A stretch of DNA of 64,000 bases from an uncultured Anaerolineae bacterium (GCA_903908605.1 CAIVSQ010000264.1:494-64493); one strand, 5' to 3'. Shown: positions 6,007 through 17,807, counted from the stretch's first letter. Numbers and translations are program-made. Notes: generated from the letters alone by a model not told the origin.

Positions 6007-6609
6007 CTAACGATATATTCGATTCTTTTGAATAAAATCGTACACGTCGGCGGGCAGGTAATAGCGATAGTGGCCCTTGTTGGCGATGCGTTCTCGAATG
6101 GATGAGGACGAAATTTCCAGCTGGGGGGTTTCAAAAAAGCGCAGCTTGTTTTTCAGACCAGGCAGGCTGTCTTCAAGCGCACTTAAGTCAAAAACAGCCC
6201 CAGGGCGCCGCATAACTCCAAAGGAATGAACTGCGGTTACCAGTTCTTCGGGACGGTTCCAGGTGGGCAGGTCGCGTAGTGAATCGCCGCCAATCAACAG
6301 AACTAACCGCGAGGTAGGGTTTCGAATTTGCAGCAGGTCAATTGTATCAAGGGTGTAGTGTGGGCCTGGACGGTCGCTTTCGATCGTTGATAGCTCAAAG
6401 ACCGGATTGTTTGCAATCACCCTGCGCGTCATCTCTATGCGTTGGTAGACATTGGTAATTGGCAGGTTGGGTTTGTGAGGCGGTTCAGGTGTTACCACCC
6501 ATAATACGCGGTCAAGTTGAAGCTGGCTGAGTGCCTCGGCAGCTAAAATTAAATGCCCAATGTGAGGGGGGTCAAAGGTTCCGCCAAAAACACCAATCGA
6601 TTCAGCCAT
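6007..6609 (-). CDS. nadD: Nicotinate-nucleotide adenylyltransferase
   Basis: GVFGGTFDPPHIGHL (the (H/T)xGH nucleotidyltransferase motif) and the C-terminal ISSSxIR motif. The ATG at 6609 gives a typical N-terminus; the track start at 6633 is a TTG. Confidence 0.85.
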   Translation of the reverse strand: MAESIGVFGGTFDPPHIGHLILAAEALSQLQLDRVLWVVTPEPPHKPNLPITNVYQRIEMTRRVIANNPVFELSTIESDRPGPHYTLDTIDLLQIRNPTSRLVLLIGGDSLRDLPTWNRPEELVTAVHSFGVMRRPGAVFDLSALEDSLPGLKNKLRFFETPQLEISSSSIRERIANKGHYRYYLPADVYDFIQKNRIYR

Positions 6610-6790
6610 GGTCAAAGTATACCCCGATTTCAACCAGCTCGTTTGGAGGGCTTACAGCATGTGTCTTTTTTTTCATACTGCCTTCCTATTGTTTTGATGA
6701 TCTCATCTATGTATAATTTATTAGCCTTATTTTTACCCAGTTTGACGGAATAAAATATTCATCCACTTTTTGAACTCATCGGAGATTCCA

Positions 6791-8224
6791 ATGACTATCG
6801 TACAGTATTCCCAGACAGATCCTCAATGGAAGAGCAAGGTGCTTGGGTTTGACAAAACCTCTACCATTGGCGCCTTTGGGTGTTTGCTGACCAGCATGTC
6901 CATGTGTGCCTCCTATTACGGGGATTCCACCTTGAACCCGGCGGTCTTGAATGACAAGATGAAAGCCATTGGCGGTTTTCAGGCTGGCACGGCATTTATT
7001 GTGGCCTGGATGATTGGTAAAGTGGTGCCCGGCATGAGCCTGGATTATCGCGCCTGCAAGGGGGCTTCAGCTCCCATGGCTGAGATTGATGCCAACCTTG
7101 CCCAGGGCAGACCAGTCATAATTGAGGTGGACTGGTCGCCACAAGCTGGCGTGCAGACACACTACATGCTGTTGTATTCCAAATCAGGCAGTGATTACCT
7201 TGTCTATGATCCTTATCCGTATCCTACCAGCAGTGGCCAGATTAAGCTTTCGGCATCAAAATACGCTACCGTGGCGGGCACTATAGACCCGGCCAGGATA
7301 ATCACGGGGCTGTTTTTCAGCCGTGGTGCAGCGCCTGTTACGCCTGTTCCCCCACCCAACCTGGATAAGGGTGTGGTGGCCAGTTTCCCCGTTTTTGCCT
7401 CGGCGGATGAACTGGCTTTACGATCTCAGCCGGTCATTGCCGATTACACCCTGCTCAAACGTTATCCTGCCAACACGGAATTCAAAATCCTTGAGGCGGA
7501 TGCCAGTGCAGGACCCAAGGTGGGTGCCCAAAATACCTGGTTACCAGTGAAGGCCGCAGATGGAAGCCAGGGTTATGTGGCCGCCTGGCTTGTTTCTAAA
7601 ACAAAAACCGGGCAAGCGCCCGCCCCGGGAACACCACCAGCGGTAGTGCCGGTTCCAAAAGATGCTCCAGTGGTTAAAACCAGTGTGGACGCGCTTAAAT
7701 TGCGTTCCAAACCTGACAGCACTGATGCGACCATTCTGAAGCTTTACCCAATTGGCACTGAGTTGAAAGTGCTCGAATCCGCCGCGGAAGCAAAGCGAAA
7801 AGTGGGTGTCAATTTTGAATGGCTCAAAGTGTCCGATGTAACTGGCAGCCAGGGGGTTGTGGCAGCCTGGTATGTTTCAATTGTCAGCCTGGGTGTATTT
7901 GGCCCCGAGGCGCAACGTGAAACCGCCGGTCCAAGTTTTTCCCTGGATGCAGAGGTTCAGCCCGTGCTCTTGCGAACCACTGAAGATCAGGTAGCCATGC
8001 GTAGCAAACCCTTCATTTCCGCCCATACCTTGATTCAACGCTTGCCCAAGGATACCGAATTGATTGCCCTGGGAAAACCCGAAACCAATATGAAAAAGCT
8101 TGGTCGCAGCGGTAAATGGATCCGTGTGAAAGATGTAAGGGGTAACCGAGGTTATGTGGCAGCCTGGTTGCTCAAAGAGCGCCCTGAGGCTCCGCTGCCT
8201 GCGGTTGCTCCCAGCGATTGCTAG
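6791..8224 (+). CDS. Papain-fold C39-like peptidase domain followed by three bacterial SH3 (SH3b) repeats; no signal peptide
   Basis: GGAGA RBS lies 5 nt before the ATG at 6791. The N-terminal QWKSK..GAFGCLLTSMSM (Cys) ... THYMLLY (His) ... VYDPY arrangement is typical of the peptidase_C39-like family. Three repeats of the type LxLRSxP....L..h....E..VLE......G....WLxVxD..G.xGYVAAWhh follow. Confidence 0.7.
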   Translation: MTIVQYSQTDPQWKSKVLGFDKTSTIGAFGCLLTSMSMCASYYGDSTLNPAVLNDKMKAIGGFQAGTAFIVAWMIGKVVPGMSLDYRACKGASAPMAEIDANLAQGRPVIIEVDWSPQAGVQTHYMLLYSKSGSDYLVYDPYPYPTSSGQIKLSASKYATVAGTIDPARIITGLFFSRGAAPVTPVPPPNLDKGVVASFPVFASADELALRSQPVIADYTLLKRYPANTEFKILEADASAGPKVGAQNTWLPVKAADGSQGYVAAWLVSKTKTGQAPAPGTPPAVVPVPKDAPVVKTSVDALKLRSKPDSTDATILKLYPIGTELKVLESAAEAKRKVGVNFEWLKVSDVTGSQGVVAAWYVSIVSLGVFGPEAQRETAGPSFSLDAEVQPVLLRTTEDQVAMRSKPFISAHTLIQRLPKDTELIALGKPETNMKKLGRSGKWIRVKDVRGNRGYVAAWLLKERPEAPLPAVAPSDC

Positions 8225-8241
8225 GTGCAGATTTGAAAATA

Positions 8242-8265
8242 TACCAGGCCGAATTCGGCCTGGTA
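8242..8265 (+). terminator. Perfect 24-nt palindrome or hairpin downstream of the SH3b gene
   Basis: taccaggccgaattcggcctggta is fully self-complementary. No clear T-run follows. Confidence 0.35.
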
Positions 8266-8353
8266 CTCGCAGCGGGATACACCTGTCATCATCTGCGCGA
8301 GATACGCTTCAGTGAAGCAACCCATGTACTTGTTTTAACAGATGGAGGTATCG

Positions 8354-10363
8354 ATGTCCAAACAACTGTTTACAAATGGTATTGAGGCCAGCAGTGGAGG
8401 TTCACTGGATGGTGATTTGGTCATTACCACTGATTTAATCGCCAAGATAGCGCGTGGTCAGCGTTTGTCAAAAGAGGATATTGACGATGCAAAAAAGCGT
8501 AAGTCACTGGATCAGGCTCGTGAAGCTCGTTTTGGGGTCGAGGAAGGCGTGGATGAGACCGTTCTGGCTCAAACTGGCTGGTCGGTGATTTTTCCGGCCG
8601 ATTTGCCACAAAAATCGGCGGATGCCATCAAGGAGGCCCTCAAACCGCTGCTTGACCTGCGCAAAGAGCAAGCCTCAGAAGAAAAGGAACATTATTATAA
8701 GGAGGTCATCGGGCCGGAGTTGGGGGTCAAAAAAGGGGAATCAAAAAACGATTTCCTCAAACGATTTGGCCGTGGGCCGGGGCCTGCCGTTCCGGATAAA
8801 TTTCCATATTACGCCATGATCGTCGGCTCTCCCGAAACCATTCCTTTCAACTTTCAGACCCAGCTCGACGTTCAGTATGCAGTCGGTCGCATTTATTTTG
8901 ACCAGCTTGAAGATTACTATCGTTACGCCACCAGTGTGGTGGCTGCAGAAAAGAAAAAGTTTTTCCGATCTAAAACTGCAGCCTTCTTTGGTGTGTCCAA
9001 CCCGGATGATAAAGCCACCAGCTTGAGTGCCACTGAGTTGATTGGCCCGCTTGCCCGTGAAATGCAGTCAGGTCACAAGGATTGGGGCGTGGATGTAATT
9101 GACCCTGCCAACGCCACCAAATCCAGGTTGGCCGAATACATGGGTGGCGCAAAAACGCCTTCCCTGCTTTTCAGCGCCAGCCACGGGATGAATTTCAAGA
9201 TGGATGACAAACGTCTGTTGCCCCACACCGGCTCCATCCTGACCCAGGATTGGCCCGGCCCCAAGGCACGCGTGCCAGTTACTGACAAAATGTACTTTTC
9301 AGCCGATGATATTGCCTCAGACGCGGATGTTTTTGGCATGATTGCATTCATTTTTGCCTGCTATGGCGGTGGTATTCCACGCAGCGATAATTTTTACCGC
9401 CAGGTGTATGGCGAACCCAAGGATATTGCTCCTTACGCTTTCCTGGCCCAACTTCCGCTCAAGTTATTGGCTCACCCACGTGGCGGAGCCCTGGGTGTGT
9501 TCGCGCATGTGGAGCGCGCGTGGGGTTCATCCATCAAGTGGGATGGTTCAACCAGCGATGTGGAAACGTTCAAGTCAACTGTTGCGGCTCTATTGAATGG
9601 TAAACCTGCCGGGGCAGCGACCGAATACTTCAACCAGCGTTATGCCGAAATTTCGACTGCCCTGACCGATGAGCTTGATTTCAGCACACCAGAGACGCAG
9701 GATGATGTGCGCGTAGCCGGGCTTTGGACCTCCAATAATGACGCGCGTAATTACACCTTCCTGGGTGATCCGGCGGTACGGTTGGCTGTGGATGGCAAAG
9801 CGCCTGATGCTCCCCAACGCGCCAGCCTGGGTGAGATTGTCACAAAGGTGCCTGCCGCCATTACCACCAGTGCCGGGTCTTTTCAACCGGATGTGGAAGC
9901 CAGAGGCGGTAAAGATGCTAAATCGGTAGCCAAGGGCACACCAGAAAGTTTTGGTTTCCCGGGCTTCCCAACCAAAAAAGACAGCGACCCGCTGGTTGCA
10001 ACACCCACGCAGGTTGATACCAGGGGTGGGGATGCGTTCAAGAAATTTGTGGAAAAACTGGGCGATTATCTATCGCAGGCTTTGACCGATGCTGCCAGCC
10101 TGGAAATCTCCACCTATGTGACCGGTGAAATGGATGATGTGAAATTTGAATCAGGGAAATTTACCGGTGCCAAGCTGCGTGCCCTGACGCGCATCAATAT
10201 CGATGGTGATACATTGGTGTGCGTGCCTGAAAAAGATGGCGAGGTTGATACAGCTGTTTGGAATATTCACGTCGAAATGGTGCGAGTCGCCCAGGAAAAT
10301 CGCGCGGAATTTATGAAAACGATTGTCAGCGCAGCGACCAGTATCGCCGGTTTTGGCAAATAA
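8354..10363 (+). CDS. Clan CD cysteine peptidase (gingipain C25 / caspase-like fold), cytoplasmic, with an acidic linker and a C-terminal uncharacterised module shared with the two downstream genes
   Basis: Numbering is from the track start at 8342. A hydrophobic strand plus LLFSASHG gives His281 (nt 9182-9184). A hydrophobic strand plus IAFIFACYGGG gives Cys340 (nt 9359-9361). This is the clan CD His-Gly / Ala-Cys dyad. PYYAMIVGSPETIPF...DVQYAVGRIYF resembles the gingipain N-terminal subdomain. There is no signal peptide. The start is either ATG 8342 or ATG 8354, and GGAGGT at 8344-8349 favours 8354. Confidence 0.7.
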   Translation: MSKQLFTNGIEASSGGSLDGDLVITTDLIAKIARGQRLSKEDIDDAKKRKSLDQAREARFGVEEGVDETVLAQTGWSVIFPADLPQKSADAIKEALKPLLDLRKEQASEEKEHYYKEVIGPELGVKKGESKNDFLKRFGRGPGPAVPDKFPYYAMIVGSPETIPFNFQTQLDVQYAVGRIYFDQLEDYYRYATSVVAAEKKKFFRSKTAAFFGVSNPDDKATSLSATELIGPLAREMQSGHKDWGVDVIDPANATKSRLAEYMGGAKTPSLLFSASHGMNFKMDDKRLLPHTGSILTQDWPGPKARVPVTDKMYFSADDIASDADVFGMIAFIFACYGGGIPRSDNFYRQVYGEPKDIAPYAFLAQLPLKLLAHPRGGALGVFAHVERAWGSSIKWDGSTSDVETFKSTVAALLNGKPAGAATEYFNQRYAEISTALTDELDFSTPETQDDVRVAGLWTSNNDARNYTFLGDPAVRLAVDGKAPDAPQRASLGEIVTKVPAAITTSAGSFQPDVEARGGKDAKSVAKGTPESFGFPGFPTKKDSDPLVATPTQVDTRGGDAFKKFVEKLGDYLSQALTDAASLEISTYVTGEMDDVKFESGKFTGAKLRALTRINIDGDTLVCVPEKDGEVDTAVWNIHVEMVRVAQENRAEFMKTIVSAATSIAGFGK

Positions 10364-10376
10364 CGGTCGATTGATC

Positions 10377-11180
10377 ATGGATGTTTTTGAAAGCTCTTCC
10401 ACAGACGTGTTGGGTTTGTGGACTGGGGTGCCCCAGTCCACGGGGCTTTCATTTGGCCTGGATTCCGATGAAACACAAACCGGACCTTTCGGAGGGGAAG
10501 GGGAGGTTTACCGAACCAATTTGCCCACCGATCCCGAAGCGGCACGTGACATCTTTATGACCAGTGCCAGCCATTTTAAACGGGTTGAAGATGCGCTGGA
10601 TGAAGTCCCCGGCCGCCTTGACACACTTGTGGCCAATGGTTTGACCGTGCCTGCAAAAGTGACTGCTGAACCAAGTTTTTCAACGGGTGAGCAGGTTAAA
10701 CCGATGACACCAGAAGATGAATTGGTTTCCATGCTGGCCGGAACCAGGACTGGCGATGACGCAACCGGTGAAAGTTTTGGCATTGGGGAGAGCATCGTGG
10801 AAAGCTGGGAGATTTTCCGAACCCAGTTTGAAGCTTTGATGACCTTGGTGGAGCGGGATGTGCTGCACTTTGCCTGGGTTGAGACCAATGTCGGTGGAGA
10901 AACTGTGGCGCGCACATCCATCAACTGGGGTGGCGATGTGCAAACCATCTTTGCTGAAGATGTAGAAAAAACCAGGGCCAGCTTGCACGAACGCACCCTG
11001 GGAACGGTGATACGTACCCGCCATTTGCGTTTGCGCCTGGCTGTAACAGTGGCCGGAGGCGCAGTTAAAATTGCCGCAGCGTTGGGCGGACCGGCTGGAC
11101 CCTTCCTGGCACTGCCGGCGGTTTACCAGTTTGTTACCAGTATTGTGGCGCAAGCCGCAGAACTGCAATCAATTCAATGA
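10377..11180 (+). CDS. Hypothetical protein: acidic, probably disordered N-terminal half, copy of the shared module, Gly/Ala-rich hydrophobic C-terminal hairpin
   Basis: The ORF lies 13 nt after the protease stop on the same strand. I recognise no family. The ATG at 10377 is preferred over the TTG at 10323, which overlaps the protease gene. The antisense ORFs in this interval look like artefacts. Confidence 0.6.
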   Translation: MDVFESSSTDVLGLWTGVPQSTGLSFGLDSDETQTGPFGGEGEVYRTNLPTDPEAARDIFMTSASHFKRVEDALDEVPGRLDTLVANGLTVPAKVTAEPSFSTGEQVKPMTPEDELVSMLAGTRTGDDATGESFGIGESIVESWEIFRTQFEALMTLVERDVLHFAWVETNVGGETVARTSINWGGDVQTIFAEDVEKTRASLHERTLGTVIRTRHLRLRLAVTVAGGAVKIAAALGGPAGPFLALPAVYQFVTSIVAQAAELQSIQ

Positions 11181-11204
11181 GAGAATTTTATTAAGGAGAA
11201 TATT

Positions 11205-11528
11205 ATGGCAACCAGTCCAGAACTGAAAGAAGCGATAAAAAATGCCGCCGACAAAATCGCGACTTATGTGAGCGACGTGGCAACAATGACCGTAGAAACC
11301 CGTTATGTAGAAATGGGTGGTGACTTCGAAAAAAGCAAGTTGGCCGCTCGCACGGTCATCAAGTTGGATGGCGACAGCGAAACTGTTCTACCAATGAAGA
11401 TGGGCACGGATGGTACCCTGGTGGTGGATACGATTGTGAATGAAAAGCATCAAGAAAATGTTCAGGCAGCCATCGATTACCGCGCCGAGATGCTTGAGCG
11501 CCTGCTTGGGCTGCTTTCCAGTCAATAA
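11205..11528 (+). CDS. Hypothetical 107-aa protein consisting only of the shared module
   Basis: Strong AAGGAG RBS. It aligns by eye with the protease C-terminus (KIATYVSDV..TVETRYV..LAARTVIKLDGDSETVLP..HQENV..YRAEM versus KLGDYLSQA..EISTYV..LRALTRINIDGDTLVCVP..HVEMV..NRAEF). It is followed by a strong terminator. Confidence 0.7.
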   Translation: MATSPELKEAIKNAADKIATYVSDVATMTVETRYVEMGGDFEKSKLAARTVIKLDGDSETVLPMKMGTDGTLVVDTIVNEKHQENVQAAIDYRAEMLERLLGLLSSQ

Positions 11529-11550
11529 AATCCAATTAATTGGAGCTGTA

Positions 11551-11592
11551 TGAATCAAGAGAGGCTACCGTCCGGTAGCCTCTCTTGATTCA
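11551..11592. terminator. Bidirectional rho-independent terminator between convergent genes
   Basis: tgaatcaagagaggctaccg / cggtagcctctcttgattca form 20-nt perfectly complementary arms with a T-run (tggtttt) on the + side. The 3' arm overlaps the stop codon of the minus-strand lipoprotein gene. Confidence 0.65.
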
Positions 11593-11922
11593 TGGTTTTA
11601 GTTGAAATGTGTTGCCATTTAACCGGCGATCGATGTCATCCAACATGCCTTCGATCTGATCAGCGATGGCATCAACGTCCGGTGTTGGATCGATCAAATA
11701 CTGGACCGTTCCCGGCGTAGCGCTTGGCTCAGGTGTGGGGCTTAATTCCACTCCTGGGATGGTTGGTTCTGCTGTTGCGCTTGGGATCGCCATGACCCTC
11801 ACTTTGGGTTTTGGCTTGGCCGGATCCTGGTCAAGCGGGCTGCTGGTATCATTTTTTGAGCAACTGCCGAGCAGCAGTGCCACGAATGCCAGCAAGATCC
11901 CTGTTACAAAAAGTTTTTTCAC
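11590..11922 (-). CDS. Small lipoprotein, function unknown
   Basis: A GTG start at 11922 gives MKKLFVTGILLAFVALLLGSC (signal peptide plus lipobox) followed by a Pro/Thr-rich linker. The longer track ORF would overlap the upstream gene. Confidence 0.55.
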   Translation of the reverse strand: MKKLFVTGILLAFVALLLGSCSKNDTSSPLDQDPAKPKPKVRVMAIPSATAEPTIPGVELSPTPEPSATPGTVQYLIDPTPDVDAIADQIEGMLDDIDRRLNGNTFQLKP

Positions 11923-12711: not shown

Positions 12712-15492
12712 TTATTGATCGGTTTTTGGCGTTTTAGCCTTGGTTGGCTTTTTTACAGGTTTTTCCGCTTTGAGTGTAGGCTTCTTCTCTGCTTTTGGTT
12801 TTTTCTCGGTTGCCGGCTTTTTCTTGCTGTTCTTCCGCAGTTTGCTGGGGGGGGCAGGGGTTGGTTCAACTACCTTGGGGGCGAATAATTCATCCCAGCG
12901 AGCCTGGATAGCCCAGTAACCGGACCCATCCAAGGAATCGCACACGGCTTTCCACTTGCCATCCGCGTCGTTGACTTCGCGAATATCCACGAATGCGTGG
13001 CATTTATATGGTCCCAGCTCAACATATAAGCCGTTTTCCACAATACCGCGACTTGGGCGGATGAAATCCAGCCCTGAGTTGATGTCATGCAGGATCAAAT
13101 AGTCGTTTTCGCCGCCGCGTAGTGCCAGGCCTTCACCGAGAGATTTTTGGCGCATCTCATTGGTAGATTTGTCCATATACACTGCTGAAGTTTTTATCCA
13201 GCCACGTGTGTCTGCGTAGCGGTTGTGATACACAACCAGGCAGCGTTCGCCGTCCTTCCCATTTGAATAAGCAAAAACATCTTCGGCGATGTTTCCTTCG
13301 GGTGTATAGACATCGTACAGCAAGAAAAGGTCGATTTCAGCGAAGAGGTAGCGCCGGCGCATAAGCGGGTAGATTACCCGTTCGTGGTGATCCATCAGAC
13401 CCTGGTTCGGATATTCGTCCCAATAGGCGCGCCGGTATTCCATGCCATATTTTTCGCGGAAGCCTTCGATTTGCCCGTGACCGATCATGGGTAAGCCCGG
13501 CAGGGTGGTCATGAGCGTGGCAACTCCGAAATATTTGTCACCGCTGCCAAACTGTTCTACGGCAGTTTTCTCATCTGGATTGTTCATGAAATTGACGTAA
13601 CGCTTGAGTACTTGCGGGTCAAATTCGAGCGTATTCTTGATGGCTTCGCGGTATTTGGCATTATCTTCATTGCGCAACATGTGCATGAATGCTGAGTTGT
13701 AGACACGATGCATGCCAAGCGTACGCACAAAGTAGCCTTCCATCATCCAGAATGCTTCTGCCAACAGCAAGGTATCGGGAACTTCGTCGGCCACACGGTC
13801 TACCACTTCTCGCCAAAATTCTTCCGGGATGGCCTGTTCAAACTGTTCACGTGTCAGGCCGTGTTCAGAGCGAGATGGAATTGCCCCACCTGAACCAGGT
13901 TCGGGGAACCACAGGCGCTGGACGTGACGTTTGGCCAGGGTCATGGCCGCATCGAAACGGATGATGGGAAAATTGCGGGCGACATGCAAGATCGTCTGGA
14001 TGACAGCTTCACGCACTTCAGCTTTGAGATAGTCGAGCTGGGCGGTGTCGTTCCAGGGCATGGAGGTGCCGTCATTGCCGTGGTAAATGTACCGGACATC
14101 CCCTGTCCATCGGTCAATGCGTTTGAAGACGACTGCTGCATCGGTTTTTTCGTAATAGTGATCTTCGAGGAAGATGCCAACCCGGCTGTCATTGGATAGA
14201 TCGCGACCATTGAAGGTGTACCCGGGGTAGGGTGAATTGGGCAGGCTCAGGAACCAATCTGGGTGCTGAACAACCCAGGTCGAATCAACGCCCATGTGGT
14301 TTGGAACCATGTCAGCCGAGAGACGAATGCCACGCTGCCATGCACGCCAGCGCAGGTTTTCGAGTGCCGCCCAGCCGCCCAGGTCATTGGAAATTTGGTA
14401 ATCCATCAATGAATAGGCAGAAGCGACCGCCTCTGGATTTCCCATCATTTGTTTGATCGTTTTAGAGGCTGTGCTGCGTTCCCACAGCCCGATCAGCCAC
14501 AGCCCGGTGATGCCGGCTTGGGCGAGTTTATCGAGTTCTTCATCCGGGATCATGTCCAGGGTGCGAATCTCACGTTTGTAGGCTTTGCTAAGTTGATCAA
14601 GCCAGACATACGAATTTTTTGCGATTAATACCAGCCGGGGCATCCAGTCCTTATCGGGGCTGAAACGCTCGTATTCGGTGAAATCTGACCCGGCAAAAGT
14701 AATGGCGGTTGTCTCGCCGGCAAATCCACCGGAGAAGTTGCCGCGAATGGCCTCCTCCTTAACAAAATCCAAGCCGCGTAGCAGGCGCTGTACAAATACG
14801 TCGCCTAGCATGACGCCCCACTTCTGTAGCAGGAACTGTAATTGGCCTTCAAGAGAATAGGGAGAAGCAATGGCAGGGGCGCGCAAGACGTGGATGAGGG
14901 TTTCGACGCTATTGGGTGTGCTAAAACCCGGTTCACCGCTTAAAAAGTCAGAAAGTGTATTGACGAGCTGATCATAACCGGTAGGTTTGAGCGCGGTATC
15001 GTCAAACAATTCCTTGTAAGGCTGTACGGCTGGGTTGAGGTTGGTAACGTGCAGTATCAACATTTCCTCAATGGTTGTCTGGCGATGCGGACGTCCGTCT
15101 GAATATGCATTCAAGTAATCTGCGGCCCAGGTTTGTTTCTGGTACACCTTTACAGGTGGAAATTCATCAAGGAATTTTAGCTGTGTCAGTTCAAAGCCAA
15201 CTTTTCCCAACCTGGTTTCCATTTTTGTGACCGCACGGCCCATCACACCAGGGTTTTGTTTTTCATACTGGCGAATAATGATGTGCATGATTTCATCAAT
15301 GAGTCCCATGGCATTGATATCGGAGGCGGGAATGGTTTTCCCGCGCACTTCGCTCATTTGGATCGCAAATTTTCGTGCGGCGGGAAAATTTGCAACAATT
15401 ACGCGGCCGTCGCTTGCGAAAAGGGAGAGATCAAATCTGTAAGTGTCTCGTGCTTTTCTGGACACATGGAATTCAAATGGGAAATTTGACAT
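12712..15492 (-). CDS. Glycoside hydrolase family 13 (alpha-amylase superfamily) protein with a lysine-rich C-terminal tail
   Basis: All four GH13 conserved regions are present: DMVPNH (I), IIRFDAAMT (II), LLAEAFW (III) and FMNNPDE (IV). It is 926 aa, and the last 55 aa or so are K/P/E/T-rich. Confidence 0.85.
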   Translation of the reverse strand: MSNFPFEFHVSRKARDTYRFDLSLFASDGRVIVANFPAARKFAIQMSEVRGKTIPASDINAMGLIDEIMHIIIRQYEKQNPGVMGRAVTKMETRLGKVGFELTQLKFLDEFPPVKVYQKQTWAADYLNAYSDGRPHRQTTIEEMLILHVTNLNPAVQPYKELFDDTALKPTGYDQLVNTLSDFLSGEPGFSTPNSVETLIHVLRAPAIASPYSLEGQLQFLLQKWGVMLGDVFVQRLLRGLDFVKEEAIRGNFSGGFAGETTAITFAGSDFTEYERFSPDKDWMPRLVLIAKNSYVWLDQLSKAYKREIRTLDMIPDEELDKLAQAGITGLWLIGLWERSTASKTIKQMMGNPEAVASAYSLMDYQISNDLGGWAALENLRWRAWQRGIRLSADMVPNHMGVDSTWVVQHPDWFLSLPNSPYPGYTFNGRDLSNDSRVGIFLEDHYYEKTDAAVVFKRIDRWTGDVRYIYHGNDGTSMPWNDTAQLDYLKAEVREAVIQTILHVARNFPIIRFDAAMTLAKRHVQRLWFPEPGSGGAIPSRSEHGLTREQFEQAIPEEFWREVVDRVADEVPDTLLLAEAFWMMEGYFVRTLGMHRVYNSAFMHMLRNEDNAKYREAIKNTLEFDPQVLKRYVNFMNNPDEKTAVEQFGSGDKYFGVATLMTTLPGLPMIGHGQIEGFREKYGMEYRRAYWDEYPNQGLMDHHERVIYPLMRRRYLFAEIDLFLLYDVYTPEGNIAEDVFAYSNGKDGERCLVVYHNRYADTRGWIKTSAVYMDKSTNEMRQKSLGEGLALRGGENDYLILHDINSGLDFIRPSRGIVENGLYVELGPYKCHAFVDIREVNDADGKWKAVCDSLDGSGYWAIQARWDELFAPKVVEPTPAPPSKLRKNSKKKPATEKKPKAEKKPTLKAEKPVKKPTKAKTPKTDQ

Positions 15493-15581: not shown

Positions 15582-17807
15582 ATGATGGATTCCATCGCGA
15601 TCTTCGATGAGGTACTGATCCTGTTTTTACTAAAATGTAGCGTTTACCTGCTAATTATCTTCTTGGCATCCAAACGCTTCAGGGATTTTTCTTCGCCAGT
15701 TTTTTGGCTTTGGGGATATGCAAGTTTTAATTTCGGCCTGTTTTTATGGCAATATTGGGATAATTTAGCCATACAACTACCTGGATTGCCCCAGGTTCAT
15801 TTAAATCTGGATGCTTTTTTTTCATTGGTCTTGTGTATTTTTGTTTACCAGGCCCTGCTGTCTTTTCTCGGGAAAAAGTACCAACCTTACGCTTTTTGGG
15901 GTGGCATTGCTGGCGGTGTTTTCCTATTGTTAGTAAACGAAGAATATTATCTTATATTGGTTGGGCTGACATTTACCCTGGTCTCCATGGCTCTCTTGAT
16001 GCAGGCCATGATCAATACTCACCAGTATTTGCACCTAAACCGTCTATATTATTGGGCGCCAGTTTTAATCATTAGTGCGATTGGTGATCTATCTCAATTT
16101 TATTTTAATAATTCCTTCACCAATGATATTCGCTTGACTGGTTTGGTGTTGCTCTCGTATGTTGTAATGAAACACCGAATTCCCGACATGCGTGATTTTT
16201 TACGGATTTTATTGATCTACCTCGTGACCACCCTGGTAAGTATGGGTTTGTTCATCGGAGGTTTTTCTTTATTAAGCCTGTTTTTTGGCGTGTCGGGCTA
16301 TATCTCTCTTTTGGTTGGTGCGGGTATCGCAGTATTGCTATCCCTCCTGTACCCTCTCCAGATCAAAGTTATTCGGCGAGGAATAAATCGTATTTTTGGG
16401 TTGCAGAGTTATGACCCTGCCAGGATTCTCAGCACATACGGTGCCAGCATCAGTAACATACTTGATCTGGAAAAGCTGGCATTGGCGGCGTTTGGGGTAA
16501 TTGAAAAGGTGTTTGAAGTGGATAAGGGCTATTTATTCCTTGTCGATCCGGAGATTGGCGATCAGGAGCGCACGGTATTCAGGGTTAGCGGCGCACGTGG
16601 GATGGGGCTGTTGCCCAATGCACGCGGTGTGTTTTCCGATGACAGTCCACTGATGCGATTTTTCCTGGATAAGCGTGTAACCCTTCTACAGTATGACATT
16701 GATTTTGCTCCATGGCTTATGAACACACCAGCAGAAGACCGTCATTGGTTCAGCAGCCTGGTAATGGATGTTTACGTTCCCATTTTTTATAAGTCAGAGT
16801 GGATTGGGCTACTTGCTCTGGGGTCCAAACCCCATAACCGCTATACCGACGAGGATTTGCGCCTGCTGGAGGCGATTGCCAGTCAGACTGCGGTTGCGTT
16901 GGAAAATGCGCGCCTGGTGGAAAATTTGAAACTGCTCAACCAACGGGTTAGTGAGGCTTATGCCGATTTGGATAAGACAACCCAAGCCCTGGCAAAACTG
17001 GAAAAAACTAAATCCAACTTTATCAGTATTGCCTCGCATGAGTTGAGATCACCATTGACTGCTGCGTTAGGATACACTGAAATGATGCTTGAGGCACCCG
17101 GCTTGCCGGATGGTTTGCTCGAGATGGTGGCGGGTGTACACAAGAGCCTGCTGCGACAGCACGAGATTATCGACTCGATGTTTGATCTTGCGCAATTGGA
17201 TGCGCGCTCGAATGAATTTCAACCGTTGGAAGTGTCGATTAATGAAATCCTGCGCTCTGTGGCTGAGGAATTATCCATCATCGCGGCGGAACGGAGCCAG
17301 CTGATTATGGTTGAATTGCCGCAGCTACCTTATATTAAGGCTGACCCAGACTCGCTTCGGAAATTGTTTCATCACCTGCTGATGAATGCCATAAAATTCA
17401 CTCCCAACGGCGGTACGATTACCCTGAGTGGGAGTCAACTAGCCCCCAATACGCATGAATTGCCGGATGGTGGTGTTGAAGTGGTTGTTCAGGATACTGG
17501 CGTGGGTGTGGATCGGGATTTACAAGACATTATTTTTACAAAATTTTACCAACCCGATGAATTACTCAACCGTCATTCCACTGGAAAAACCAAATTTATG
17601 GGATCCGGGGTAGGTCTTGGTCTGGCTCTATCCCGTGGGATCGTTGAGGCGCATGGTGGGCGTATTTGGGTGGAGAGTTTGGGTTATGATGAGAAGGCCT
17701 GCCCAGGTAGTAAATTTCATGTTGTCTTACCACTGCGCCCCCAGGGTGAAAGCAGCACGGCCCGAATGAGCAGTGCCATTAAATTGCGGTTGGAAATGAA
17801 GTCGTAA
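15582..17807 (+). CDS. Sensor histidine kinase: polytopic N-terminal membrane domain, GAF, HisKA, HATPase_c
   Basis: There are about eight hydrophobic segments, then a GAF-like region, the H-box ASHELRSPLT, an N-box LLMNAIKFT and G-boxes DTGVGV / GSGVGLGL. Confidence 0.85.
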   Translation: MMDSIAIFDEVLILFLLKCSVYLLIIFLASKRFRDFSSPVFWLWGYASFNFGLFLWQYWDNLAIQLPGLPQVHLNLDAFFSLVLCIFVYQALLSFLGKKYQPYAFWGGIAGGVFLLLVNEEYYLILVGLTFTLVSMALLMQAMINTHQYLHLNRLYYWAPVLIISAIGDLSQFYFNNSFTNDIRLTGLVLLSYVVMKHRIPDMRDFLRILLIYLVTTLVSMGLFIGGFSLLSLFFGVSGYISLLVGAGIAVLLSLLYPLQIKVIRRGINRIFGLQSYDPARILSTYGASISNILDLEKLALAAFGVIEKVFEVDKGYLFLVDPEIGDQERTVFRVSGARGMGLLPNARGVFSDDSPLMRFFLDKRVTLLQYDIDFAPWLMNTPAEDRHWFSSLVMDVYVPIFYKSEWIGLLALGSKPHNRYTDEDLRLLEAIASQTAVALENARLVENLKLLNQRVSEAYADLDKTTQALAKLEKTKSNFISIASHELRSPLTAALGYTEMMLEAPGLPDGLLEMVAGVHKSLLRQHEIIDSMFDLAQLDARSNEFQPLEVSINEILRSVAEELSIIAAERSQLIMVELPQLPYIKADPDSLRKLFHHLLMNAIKFTPNGGTITLSGSQLAPNTHELPDGGVEVVVQDTGVGVDRDLQDIIFTKFYQPDELLNRHSTGKTKFMGSGVGLGLALSRGIVEAHGGRIWVESLGYDEKACPGSKFHVVLPLRPQGESSTARMSSAIKLRLEMKS

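What the first reader, a model, noticed from the sequence alone, without database searches (positions are those of the whole stretch)
10034..11528. One unrecognised module of about 75 aa is present in all three products of the operon
By eye, three segments align. They are the protease C-terminus (residues about 565-660, nt 10034-10321), the middle of gene 2 (nt about 10800-11027) and essentially all of gene 3.

The shared anchors are as follows:
- an N-terminal amphipathic helix (KLGDYLSQA / FEALMTLVE / KIATYVSDV)
- a strand EISTYV / WVETNV / TVETRYV
- a strand-turn LRALTRINIDGDTLV / TVARTSINWGGDVQTIF / LAARTVIKLDGDSETVL, that is A-[RL]-T-x-I-x-x-[DG]-G-D-x-x-T
- a His-containing helix NIHVEMV / SLHERTL / EKHQENV, followed by a basic or acidic helix (NRAEF / RTRHL / YRAEM)

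A common fold attached to an enzyme, to a putative effector and as a free-standing protein is the pattern expected for homotypic adaptor or assembly domains. I could not match it to any domain I know.
Basis: seen in the sequence. Interest (0 to 1): 0.75.

Follow-up and report, generated by a model that had tools for sequence, protein, structure and literature searches.

The report
Undescribed domain repeated in protease operon
Three neighbouring genes of an Anaerolineales bacterium (a caspase-like protease, a 267-residue protein and a 107-residue protein) each carry a copy of one undescribed ~100-residue domain, and this trio is usually the tail end of an NLR-like immune operon, so the domain probably joins the three proteins into one complex.

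Summary
Gene 3 (11205-11528) and the protease C-terminus (nt ~10031-10342) are clear homologues: BLASTP E 2e-9, and hhalign 97.7-99.7%. The middle of gene 2 (nt ~10785-11084) is a probable divergent third copy. hhalign gives 76-89% (E 2e-5 to 3e-6), 0 of 150 column shuffles reach the real score, the G-D, H and R invariants sit at identical spacing, and the predicted secondary structure has the same order.

The module is about 100 aa, not 75, with an alpha-beta3(5)-alpha layout. It matches nothing in Pfam, NCBIfam, PADLOC, PHROGs or the PDB, by sequence or by Foldseek.

The protease-g2-g3 order is conserved wherever the contig reaches, in 70 loci, each from a different species, mostly Chloroflexota. 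In 37 of 55 informative loci the trio directly follows CHAT+SIR2 and nSTAND1+WD40 genes. This window has a reduced form with only a C39-like/SH3 gene upstream.

The module also sits on a C39/SH3 protein (L079) and occurs as four tandem cores inside an nSTAND1 protein (P0286). The neighbouring STAND proteins lack it, so it is not a classical sensor-to-effector adaptor.

An assembly role within the trio is the best reading, but no interaction was tested. Conserved SF[GDQ] motifs in disordered linkers suggest docking or cleavage sites.

The parts
6770..8224 (+). g0: Peptidase_C39_2-like domain plus three bacterial SH3 domains (484 aa). It is the first gene of the operon in this window.
   Evidence: Pfam gives SH3_3 at E 9e-16 and Peptidase_C39_2 at E 1e-6. 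The same gene lies directly upstream of the protease in L005, L006, L016, L054 and L059, and upstream of CHAT-SIR2 in at least 9 full-length loci. In L079 a homologue carries the module at its C-terminus.
8354..10363 (+). g1: clan-CD (C25-like, caspase-fold) cysteine protease of 669 aa. An alternative ATG at 8342 would give 673 aa.
   Evidence: Pfam Peptidase_C25 scores E 1e-4, 22.0 bits against a cut-off of 23. Many homologues carry a precomputed PF01364 hit. His281 (nt 9182-9184) and Cys340 (nt 9359-9361) are invariant in 112 homologues.
9878..9976 (+). Protease linker with two conserved short motifs. SFQPD is at residues 513-517. SFG is at residues 536-538, and the family consensus there is [SN][FY]G[IL]xD[LF]FKK.
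   Evidence: Column conservation in 112 homologues is F 96%, Q 100%, P 97%, D 96% for the first motif. For the second it is N/S, Y/F, G 80%, D 74%, K 72%, K 85%. Coordinates were checked.
10031..10342 (+). Module copy 1, at the C-terminus of the protease (residues 564-667 of the 673-aa ORF).
   Evidence: BLASTP against g3 gives E 2e-9. hhalign gives 97.7-99.7%.
10377..11180 (+). g2: 267-aa protein. It has an N-terminal region with three SF motifs, then module copy 2, then a hydrophobic helical hairpin.
   Evidence: 39 homologues of 258-288 aa start at the equivalent of ATG 10377. The AlphaFold model has pLDDT 73. No family or fold match was found.
10446..10460 (+). g2 SF motif 1 (LSFGL).
   Evidence: S25 and F26 are nearly invariant in the family. 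The motif lies in the low-pLDDT segment 22-39.
10671..10685 (+). g2 SF motif 2 (PSFST).
   Evidence: S100 is nearly invariant and F101 is invariant. The motif lies in the low-pLDDT segment 92-107.
10770..10787 (+). g2 SF motif 3 (ESFGIG), directly before the module.
   Evidence: F134 is nearly invariant and G135 is invariant. The motif lies in the low-pLDDT segment 126-137. It aligns with the [SN][FY]G motif of the protease linker.
10785..11084 (+). Module copy 2, a divergent copy at g2 residues 137-236. The core supported by hhalign is residues 173-228, nt 10893-11060.
   Evidence: hhalign gives 76-89%, E 2e-5 to 3e-6. The shuffle control is, the coinciding invariant residues, and the matching secondary-structure order.
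11031..11177 (+). g2 C-terminal Ala/Gly-rich hydrophobic helix-turn-helix (residues 219-267).
   Evidence: The model predicts H198-236 and H241-266. The maximum Kyte-Doolittle 19-residue mean is 1.53, with a family median of 1.54, which is borderline for a membrane segment.
11205..11528 (+). g3: module copy 3 as a free-standing 107-aa protein.
   Evidence: 152 close homologues were found. The AlphaFold model has pLDDT 88.3 and an alpha-beta5-alpha layout. An AAGGAGA ribosome-binding site lies upstream.
11549..11594 (+). Terminator-like hairpin with a 20-bp stem, marking the end of the operon.
   Evidence: Promoter/terminator scan.

Best explanation
**What it is.** The module ('M') is an undescribed domain of about 100 residues. 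It consists of a long helix, a three-stranded meander sheet (with a small extra hairpin in two of the copies) and a second long helix. Its signature is A-x-T-x-[IV]-x-[LIW]-x-G-D ... H-x(10)-R. It was triplicated long ago within one conserved three-gene cassette:
- a clan-CD cysteine protease with a C-terminal linker and M;
- g2, which has an N-terminal region, M and a hydrophobic helical hairpin;
- g3, which is M alone.

**Context.** In most Chloroflexota the cassette forms the distal end of an NLR-like conflict operon: C39/SH3, CHAT+SIR2, nSTAND1+WD40, protease-M, g2, g3. This window carries a reduced form that lacks the CHAT-SIR2 and STAND genes.

**Shown.**
- Homology of the g1 and g3 copies.
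- Probable homology of the g2 copy.
- Conservation of the cassette and of its context.
- Absence of any known family or fold match.

**Inferred mechanism.** The three diverged M copies bind one another and form a defined hetero-oligomer.
- This complex holds the protease (or, in L079, the C39/SH3 enzyme) next to g2.
- g3 acts as the free copy that completes, caps or regulates the assembly.
- The conserved SF[GDQ] motifs in the disordered linkers of the protease and g2 are docking or cleavage sites through which the complex is processed.
For: - **Three paralogous copies in adjacent genes**.
- **Strict co-occurrence and order** of protease, g2 and g3 wherever the contig allows, in 70 loci, each from a different species. 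These are mostly Anaerolineales, plus Chloroflexus, Thermomicrobiales, Caldilineales and Myxococcota.
- **Long independent history.** Each copy is its own orthologous family with its own conserved residues. This is what one expects of distinct subunits of one complex.
- **Enzyme swap.** In L079 a C39_2/SH3 protein carries 'VSFG...KK + M' at its C-terminus, and g2 follows it directly.
- **Tandem copies.** Four module cores lie in an nSTAND1/WD40/trypsin protein.
- **Immune context.** 37 of 55 loci with at least 4.5 kb upstream have CHAT+SIR2 and nSTAND1+WD40 directly upstream of the protease.
- **The protease looks active.** The His/Cys dyad is invariant.
- **SF motifs are conserved** although they lie in low-confidence linkers.
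Against: - No interaction was measured or modelled.
- The neighbouring nSTAND1 and CHAT-SIR2 proteins lack M, so M does not explain how the sensor would reach the cassette.
- Invariant polar residues (D of the G-D turn, H and R) shared by all three copies could mark a ligand- or peptide-binding site rather than a protein-protein interface.
- Homology of the g2 copy rests on 76-89% hhalign probability, not on certainty.
- One stand-alone copy (L074) lies beside a CHAT gene with no C25-like protease or g2.
- The link to defence is by context only. The window's neighbours are housekeeping genes, and no plasmid or phage copies exist.
Confidence: 0.5

Rival explanations
1. M is a sensor or regulatory domain that binds a small ligand, for example an NAD-derived product of the neighbouring SIR2 domain, or a short peptide, for example the SF[GDQ] motifs. 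Binding switches the attached enzyme on. The three copies exist because three components respond to the same signal, or because sites form between copies.
For: - The positions conserved in all three families are A, T, G, D, H and R, most of them polar. The G, H and R columns are 100% conserved.
- A SIR2 domain is encoded two genes upstream in most loci.
- There is a precedent in kind. [quoted passage not shown]
- SF motifs always accompany M when it is fused to an enzyme.
Against: - The cassette persists unchanged in loci that lack CHAT-SIR2 and the STAND gene, including this window.
- No similarity was found to any known nucleotide-binding fold.
- D55 and D75 of g3 are not kept in g2.
Confidence: 0.2
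2. g3 is a decoy or inhibitor. It mimics the protease's own C-terminal domain and keeps the protease, or g2, inactive until it is displaced or degraded, in the manner of an antitoxin. M therefore matters for autoinhibition rather than for building a complex.
For: - g3 is the bare module, has its own strong ribosome-binding site and is the last gene of the operon.
- It is always present with the protease.
- It has no SF motif, unlike the two other carriers.
Against: - This does not explain the third copy in g2.
- g3 is more conserved (58-87% identity across the hits) than is typical of fast-evolving immunity proteins.
- There is no direct evidence.
Confidence: 0.15
3. Only two real copies exist, in the protease tail and in g3. 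On this view the resemblance of g2 is a short convergent motif on an unrelated alpha/beta region.
For: - BLASTP finds only 15 residues at E 0.029, and nothing against the protease.
- hhalign probabilities against the protease copy alone are 4-28%.
- One of 150 block-of-8 shuffles reached the real score.
Against: - The signal rises as diversity is added, from E 5e-4 to E 2.6e-6, and reaches 88.7%.
- 0 of 150 column shuffles reach the real score.
- Five anchors coincide in order. The A-to-G and H-to-R spacings are identical, and the shared G, H and R columns are 100% conserved in both families.
- The secondary-structure order is the same.
- The gene is adjacent in the same operon.
Confidence: 0.15

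Closest known systems
Effector-associated domains (EAD1-11, bacterial Death-like domains) of NTPase-centred conflict systems (Kaur, Burroughs, Iyer and Aravind, eLife 2020, PMC7159879; eLife 2021, PMC8195603)
   Same: - It is a small domain without catalytic motifs.
- It recurs on several proteins of one operon and is fused to peptidase effectors.
- It occurs in multicellular or filamentous bacteria next to an nSTAND1 NTPase. nSTAND1 is the clade named in PMC8195603.
   Different: - No Pfam EAD, EACC or Trypco model matches.
- The predicted structure is alpha/beta, not an all-helical Death-like bundle.
- The neighbouring STAND protein does not carry it, so it links downstream components to one another rather than sensor to effector.
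Trypco1/Trypco2 (trypsin-co-occurring domains; PMC7159879)
   Same: It involves uncharacterised small proteins that are always encoded next to a particular peptidase in conflict operons.
   Different: - There is no sequence match.
- The partner here is a clan-CD protease, not a trypsin.
- The co-occurring proteins share a domain with the peptidase itself.
[quoted passage not shown]
   Same: It is a caspase-fold protease carrying an uncharacterised C-terminal regulatory domain within a system that also encodes an NAD-processing enzyme.
   Different: - The upstream enzyme here is SIR2, fused to CHAT, not TIR.
- The domain is repeated in two extra proteins.
- PADLOC (2023) does not hit, and Foldseek against the PDB finds nothing.
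Peptidase family C25 / clan CD (gingipain-like) proteases
   Same: The His-Gly and Ala-Cys dyad motifs are present in order. Pfam PF01364 gives a weak hit on the window protein and precomputed hits on many homologues.
   Different: - The window protein scores just below the Pfam cut-off, 22.0 against 23 bits.
- It is cytoplasmic, with no signal peptide noticed by eye.
- It has a unique N-terminal region and the linker + M tail.
- No PDB relative is detectable by sequence.
dsRBD-like and S30AE/HPF alpha-beta-beta-beta-alpha sandwiches
   Same: The order of secondary-structure elements is the same. There is a weak Pfam Ribosomal_S30AE hit at E 0.025 for g3, and HPF/protein Y appears among the insignificant Foldseek hits of g2.
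   Different: - All scores are below threshold: Pfam 15.7 against 23.7 bits, and Foldseek E above 2 with TM below 0.2.
- The helices are far longer.
- This is a resemblance of topology only. The link between these folds is recalled from memory.

Membership tests
Effector-associated domains (EAD / EACC / Trypco, Pfam models) | Sequence match to one of the curated models | tested here: not met
   No such family appears at E up to 1 for g1, g2 or g3, or for the 44 module and 40 g2 family members. NCBIfam also gives nothing.
Effector-associated domains (functional class) | The same domain is present on the core NTPase or sensor protein and on the effector of the same locus | tested here: not met
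   The nSTAND1+WD40 and CHAT+SIR2 proteins of L001, L003, L007 and L008 have no module hit even with filters off. The only exception is P0286, which has 4 tandem cores inside an nSTAND1 protein.
Effector-associated domains (functional class) | Fusion of the domain to different effector types | tested here: met
   The module is fused to the C25-like protease in most cases, to a C39_2+SH3 protein (P0303, L079), and lies inside a trypsin+nSTAND1 protein (P0286). Only three architectures are seen besides the stand-alone form and g2.
Death-like / EAD fold | All-alpha helical bundle | tested here: not met
   The AlphaFold model of g3 (pLDDT 88) is helix, five strands, helix.
Peptidase C25 / clan CD (for the carrier protease) | Catalytic His then Cys, in H-G and A-C motifs | tested here: met
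   H281 and C340 are invariant in 112 homologues. The flanking G282 and A339 are also invariant.
Peptidase C25 / clan CD (for the carrier protease) | Pfam PF01364 gathering score | tested here: inconclusive
   The window protein scores 22.0 bits against a cut-off of 23. Many homologues have a precomputed PF01364 hit.
Bacterial gasdermin + protease systems (considered for g2) | Gasdermin fold or family match for the ~270-aa protein next to the caspase-like protease | tested here: not met
   There is no Pfam hit, no PDB sequence hit, and the best Foldseek PDB E-value is 0.64 with no gasdermin among the hits. PADLOC gives none.
S30AE/HPF or dsRBD-like domains | Significant sequence or structure match | tested here: not met
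   Pfam gives E 0.025, 15.7 bits against a 23.7 cut-off, in 2 of 44 members. The Foldseek searches with the g3 model give no hit at E up to 0.001.
STAND (nSTAND1) conflict/defence operon (for the locus as a whole) | A STAND NTPase is encoded in the operon | tested here: not met
   No nSTAND1 or CHAT-SIR2 hit occurs anywhere in the 64-kb window. The feature is met in 37 of 55 related loci, so this window holds a reduced derivative.
Anti-phage defence system | Protection against phage, or membership of a catalogued system | not testable with these tools
   PADLOC has no model for g0-g3. Function would need an experiment.

The most novel reading that the evidence does not exclude
M is a new fold that forms a three-subunit hub at the output end of an apoptosome-like nSTAND1-WD40 system, and this system runs a protease cascade. 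On activation, the CHAT protease or the clan-CD protease cuts at the conserved SF[GDQ] linker motifs. That frees the clan-CD protease from the hub and releases g2's hydrophobic helical hairpin as a membrane-damaging executioner. This would be an analogue of caspase and gasdermin built from unrelated parts. g3 would act as the cap that keeps the hub silent.
Probability: 0.1. Interest if true: 0.85.

Novelty: new variant of a known kind. Interest (0 to 1): 0.6.

Why it matters
**What is new.**
- A confidently modelled domain has no relative in Pfam, NCBIfam or the PDB.
- The same domain is carried by all three products of a conserved cassette.
- The cassette adds a new output branch to STAND/NLR-like conflict systems of filamentous bacteria. 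In its full form, CHAT, C25-like and C39-like peptidases and a SIR2 domain are encoded in one operon.

**What it would make testable.**
- How bacterial NLR-like sensors hand over to separately encoded effectors.
- Whether prokaryotes run multi-step protease cascades.
- Whether 'same domain on enzyme, partner and free protein' is a general way to build such complexes.

**Practical use.** The signature A-x-T-x-[IV]-x-[LIW]-x-G-D ... H-x(10)-R and the alignments made here would suffice to define a new family. That family has 753 representative clusters at E up to 1e-3.

Tried and rejected
- **Whole-protein mixed alignment.** Aligning whole proteases together with g3 proteins by MAFFT --auto spread g3 over the full length. 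I used cut-out C-terminal segments instead.
- **Apparent variety of carrier proteins.** The lengths in the representative search run from 81 to 2675 aa, which looked like many different fusions. Mapping with the protease HMM showed that most are truncated metagenomic protease fragments. Only P0303, P0286 and P0421 are really different.
- **A g2-g3 fusion in L078.** This was an artefact of stop-to-stop ORFs across a frameshifted g2.
- **Known folds and families.**
  - Foldseek of the g3 and g2 models against the PDB, and of g3 against BFVD, gave nothing at E up to 0.001.
  - HMM searches of PDB sequences gave only a marginal GroEL hit, 5da8 at E 0.0015, which I treated as chance.
  - PADLOC and PHROGs gave nothing.
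- **Module on the upstream proteins.** The nSTAND1 and CHAT-SIR2 proteins have none.
- **g2 as gasdermin.** There is no support.
- **g2 tail as a clear transmembrane hairpin.** Hydropathy is only borderline.
- **Phage or plasmid origin.** No copies were found.
- **Genome-contig scan with the mixed alignment A3.** A1 worked.
- **Literature.** No paper describing this cassette or module was found.


Full report
**Genes**

The + strand between 6770 and 11528 holds four closely spaced genes.
- g0 (6770-8224) is a Peptidase_C39_2-like domain followed by three SH3_3 domains.
- g1 (8342/8354-10363) is a 669-673-aa protein with a weak Peptidase_C25 hit: E 1e-4, 22.0 bits against a cut-off of 23.
  - Many of its hundreds of homologues carry a precomputed PF01364 hit.
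  - The clan-CD dyad (His281 in A-S-H-G, Cys340 in F-A-C-Y) is invariant in 112 homologues.
- g2 has no family match.
  - Its homologues are 258-288 aa and cover 94% of the listed ORF.
  - Public gene calls give exactly 267 aa, so the real start is ATG 10377, 14 nt after the protease stop.
- g3 (11205-11528) is 107 aa and has an AAGGAGA ribosome-binding site.
- A 20-bp-stem terminator-like hairpin follows at 11549-11594.
- Names attached to the hits place the organism in Anaerolineales, Chloroflexota.

**Is the shared module real?**

For g3 and the protease tail the answer is a clear yes.
- BLASTP gives 34% identity over 110 columns, E 2e-9, at protease residues 564-667.
- Family HMMs cross-hit at 1e-11 to 3e-12.
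- hhalign gives 97.7%, and 99.7% with E 1.7e-26 when 56-73 species per family are used.

For g2 the evidence is that of remote homology, but it is consistent.
- BLASTP sees only ARTxIxxxGDxxT, E 0.029.
- Profile-profile comparison always lands on the same place, and it strengthens as diversity is added.
  - Close homologues give E 5e-4 to 7e-5.
  - The built-in comparison of A2 with A3 gives 76%, E 2.3e-5.
  - The alignments with 44-73 species per family give 83-89%, E 9e-6 to 3e-6.
- The real score is 29.5. For 150 column shuffles the mean is 12.7, sd 2.3 and maximum 21.7. The reversed alignment scores 11.8.
- One of 150 block-of-8 shuffles reached the real score. This is not a clean null, because blocks keep the motif intact.
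- The best-conserved columns of each family coincide.
  - A is conserved at 99/100/82% and T at 90/96/77% in strand 2.
  - G is 100/100/100% and D 99/100/93% in the turn, always 8 residues after the A.
  - H is 100% in all three, and R is 100% in all three exactly 11 residues later.
- The AlphaFold models have the same order of elements.
  - g3 (pLDDT 88.3): H5-26, E27-34, E45-53, E58-61, hairpin E64-66/E72-74, H76-104.
  - g2 (pLDDT 73.1): H137-163, E166-172, E175-182, E188-192, H198-236.
  - The 8-residue gap in the alignment corresponds to the small hairpin that g2 lacks.

I could not superpose the models, because coordinates are not exposed. I put the g2 copy at about 85% likely.

**Is it known?**

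No match was found in any library searched.
- Pfam and NCBIfam give nothing for the three proteins. They also give nothing consistent when each of 44 module and 40 g2 family members is scanned at E up to 1.
- PADLOC and PHROGs give nothing.
- Profile searches of PDB sequences give only a marginal GroEL hit, E 0.0015.
- Foldseek of the confident g3 model finds nothing in the PDB (best E 0.43, TM below 0.3) or in BFVD (best E 0.043).
- Foldseek of the g2 model also finds nothing.
- The weak S30AE/HPF echoes reflect the common alpha-beta-beta-beta-alpha order of elements and are below every threshold.
- I found no paper that describes the cassette.

**Distribution**

- A profile of the module finds 753 representative clusters (50% identity level) at E up to 1e-3, and 477 at E up to 1e-10.
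- Of the best 150 hits, 87 are protease-fused with the module always C-terminal and 39 are stand-alone. A further 22 of the remaining 24 look like linker-plus-module pieces of truncated proteases. The spread of lengths therefore overstates the architectural variety.
- Three hits are really different.
  - P0421 is a tandemly duplicated protease.
  - P0286 has Trypsin_2, nSTAND1, four tandem module cores at 981-1328 and WD40 repeats.
  - P0303 is a complete C39_2+SH3 protein that ends in 'VSFGLFDNPKK...' plus the module, and a g2 homologue follows it directly in L079. In that genome a different enzyme occupies the protease's place and carries the same tail.

**Genomic context**

- One scan of GTDB species representatives returned 70 loci. 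Nearly all are Chloroflexota: Anaerolineales, Chloroflexus, Thermomicrobiales and Caldilineales. A few are Myxococcota, and two are labelled Proteobacteria.
- Wherever the contig reaches, the order protease, g2, g3 is kept.
- Of 55 loci with at least 4.5 kb upstream of the protease:
  - 37 have a CHAT+SIR2 gene followed by an nSTAND1+WD40 gene directly upstream;
  - at least 9 of those 37 also show the C39/SH3 gene further upstream, at the edge of the fetched flank;
  - 4 have the C39/SH3 gene directly upstream with no STAND gene, as in this window. L006 and L016 are the same type but have shorter upstream flanks.
- No STAND or CHAT-SIR2 hit exists anywhere in the 64-kb window.
- The simplest reading is a six-gene ancestral operon from which the two middle genes were lost in this lineage.
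- The STAND protein starts directly with its NTPase domain. Neither it nor CHAT-SIR2 contains the module.
- No copy was found in viral contigs or plasmids.

**Other features of the carriers**

- g2 has three nearly invariant SF motifs: S25-F26, S100-F101 and F134-G135. Each sits inside one of the three low-confidence segments of the model, 22-39, 92-107 and 126-137.
- The protease linker has two comparable motifs, SFQPD and [SN][FY]G[IL]xD[LF]FKK, which are strongly conserved in an otherwise variable Ala/Pro-rich stretch.
- A profile alignment of g2 with the last 200 residues of the protease is collinear from the SFG/NYG motif through the module, with weak support (E 3.6e-4). With a relaxed threshold it also pairs the second g2 motif with SFQP.
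- Conserved short motifs in disordered linkers usually mark docking or cleavage sites. Which of the two applies here is not known.
- g2 ends in an Ala/Gly-rich helix-turn-helix whose hydropathy is borderline for membrane insertion.

**Interpretation**

The shown facts are:
- a triplicated, undescribed domain;
- an obligate three-gene cassette;
- an enzyme swap that keeps the tail and the partner;
- tandem copies inside a STAND protein;
- a usual position at the output end of an nSTAND1-WD40/CHAT-SIR2 operon.

The most economical explanation is that the three diverged copies bind each other and build a defined complex. That complex would tether the enzyme to g2, with g3 as the free subunit that completes or regulates it (confidence about 0.5).

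The defining feature of that class, the same domain on the NTPase protein, was tested and not met.

The main rival is that the invariant D/H/R constellation is a binding site for a small signal or for the SF peptides. The type IV Thoeris caspase-like effector, with its uncharacterised C-terminal domain, is a precedent in kind. Against this rival, the cassette survives intact without SIR2. A decoy-inhibitor role for g3, and non-homology of the g2 copy, remain possible.

**Verdict**

- The domain is new as a family and possibly as a fold. The kind of system, an adaptor-like domain in a STAND-associated conflict operon, is known.
- Interest is moderate to high for people who study prokaryotic immune and cell-death systems.

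Noticed in passing
window 9878-9976; 10446-10460; 10671-10685; 10770-10787: Short SF[GDQ]-type motifs recur five times. SFQPD and SFG..KK lie in the protease linker, and LSFGL, PSFST and ESFGIG lie in g2. All are conserved across the families, although they sit in disordered or low-pLDDT linkers. They may be docking or cleavage sites.
   Followed up: partly
L001, L007, L008, L009-L075 (for example L007 179-9330); window 6770-11528: In most related genomes the cassette is the end of a six-gene operon: C39/SH3, CHAT+SIR2, nSTAND1+WD40, protease, g2, g3. The window has no STAND or CHAT-SIR2 gene anywhere in its 64 kb and looks like a deletion derivative.
   Followed up: yes
L079 102-2626 (protein P0303): A Peptidase_C39_2 + SH3 protein carries a VSFG motif and the module at its C-terminus, and a shortened g2 homologue follows it directly. 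The contig is only 2.6 kb, so the rest of the locus is unknown.
   Followed up: partly
L080 3896-11923 (protein P0286): A 2675-aa protein has Trypsin_2, nSTAND1, a second P-loop, four tandem module cores, WD40 repeats and a long C-terminal region. A CHAT gene follows it, and an integrase lies upstream. It could be a real all-in-one version or a fused gene call.
   Followed up: partly
protein P0421 (1231 aa): The whole clan-CD protease region is tandemly duplicated, with a single module at the very C-terminus.
   Followed up: no
L074 6296-9324: A stand-alone module gene lies beside a CHAT protease gene and a TlyA-like methyltransferase, with GH25-like genes downstream and no C25-like protease or g2. 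It is an orphan or an alternative context.
   Followed up: no
L078 8110-9336: g2 is frameshifted in this distant Chloroflexia genome, from either a pseudogene or an assembly error. This made a stop-to-stop ORF look like a g2-g3 fusion.
   Followed up: yes
window 10323-10377 and 8342-8354: The mechanical ORF starts are probably too early. Homologues and public gene calls support ATG 10377 for g2 (267 aa) and ATG 8354 for the protease (669 aa), so g1 and g2 do not overlap.
   Followed up: yes
window 11031-11177: g2 ends in an Ala/Gly-rich hydrophobic helix-turn-helix that is conserved across the family. Its hydropathy (maximum 1.53) is borderline for a membrane hairpin.
   Followed up: partly
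module profile A3 against the PDB: A marginal hit to a 60-kDa chaperonin (5da8_A residues 287-370, E 0.0015) covers most of the module. I treated it as chance and did not examine it.
   Followed up: no
window 6007-6633 (-), 12712-15492 (-), 15582-17807 (+): The flanking genes look like housekeeping genes. They are a gene with an NadD-like GGTFDPPHIGH motif (judged by eye from the translation), an alpha-amylase-family gene and a GAF/HisKA kinase (by synteny with the Pfam-annotated L005 and L006). They are syntenic in L005 and L006, so the locus is not in an obvious defence island.
   Followed up: partly
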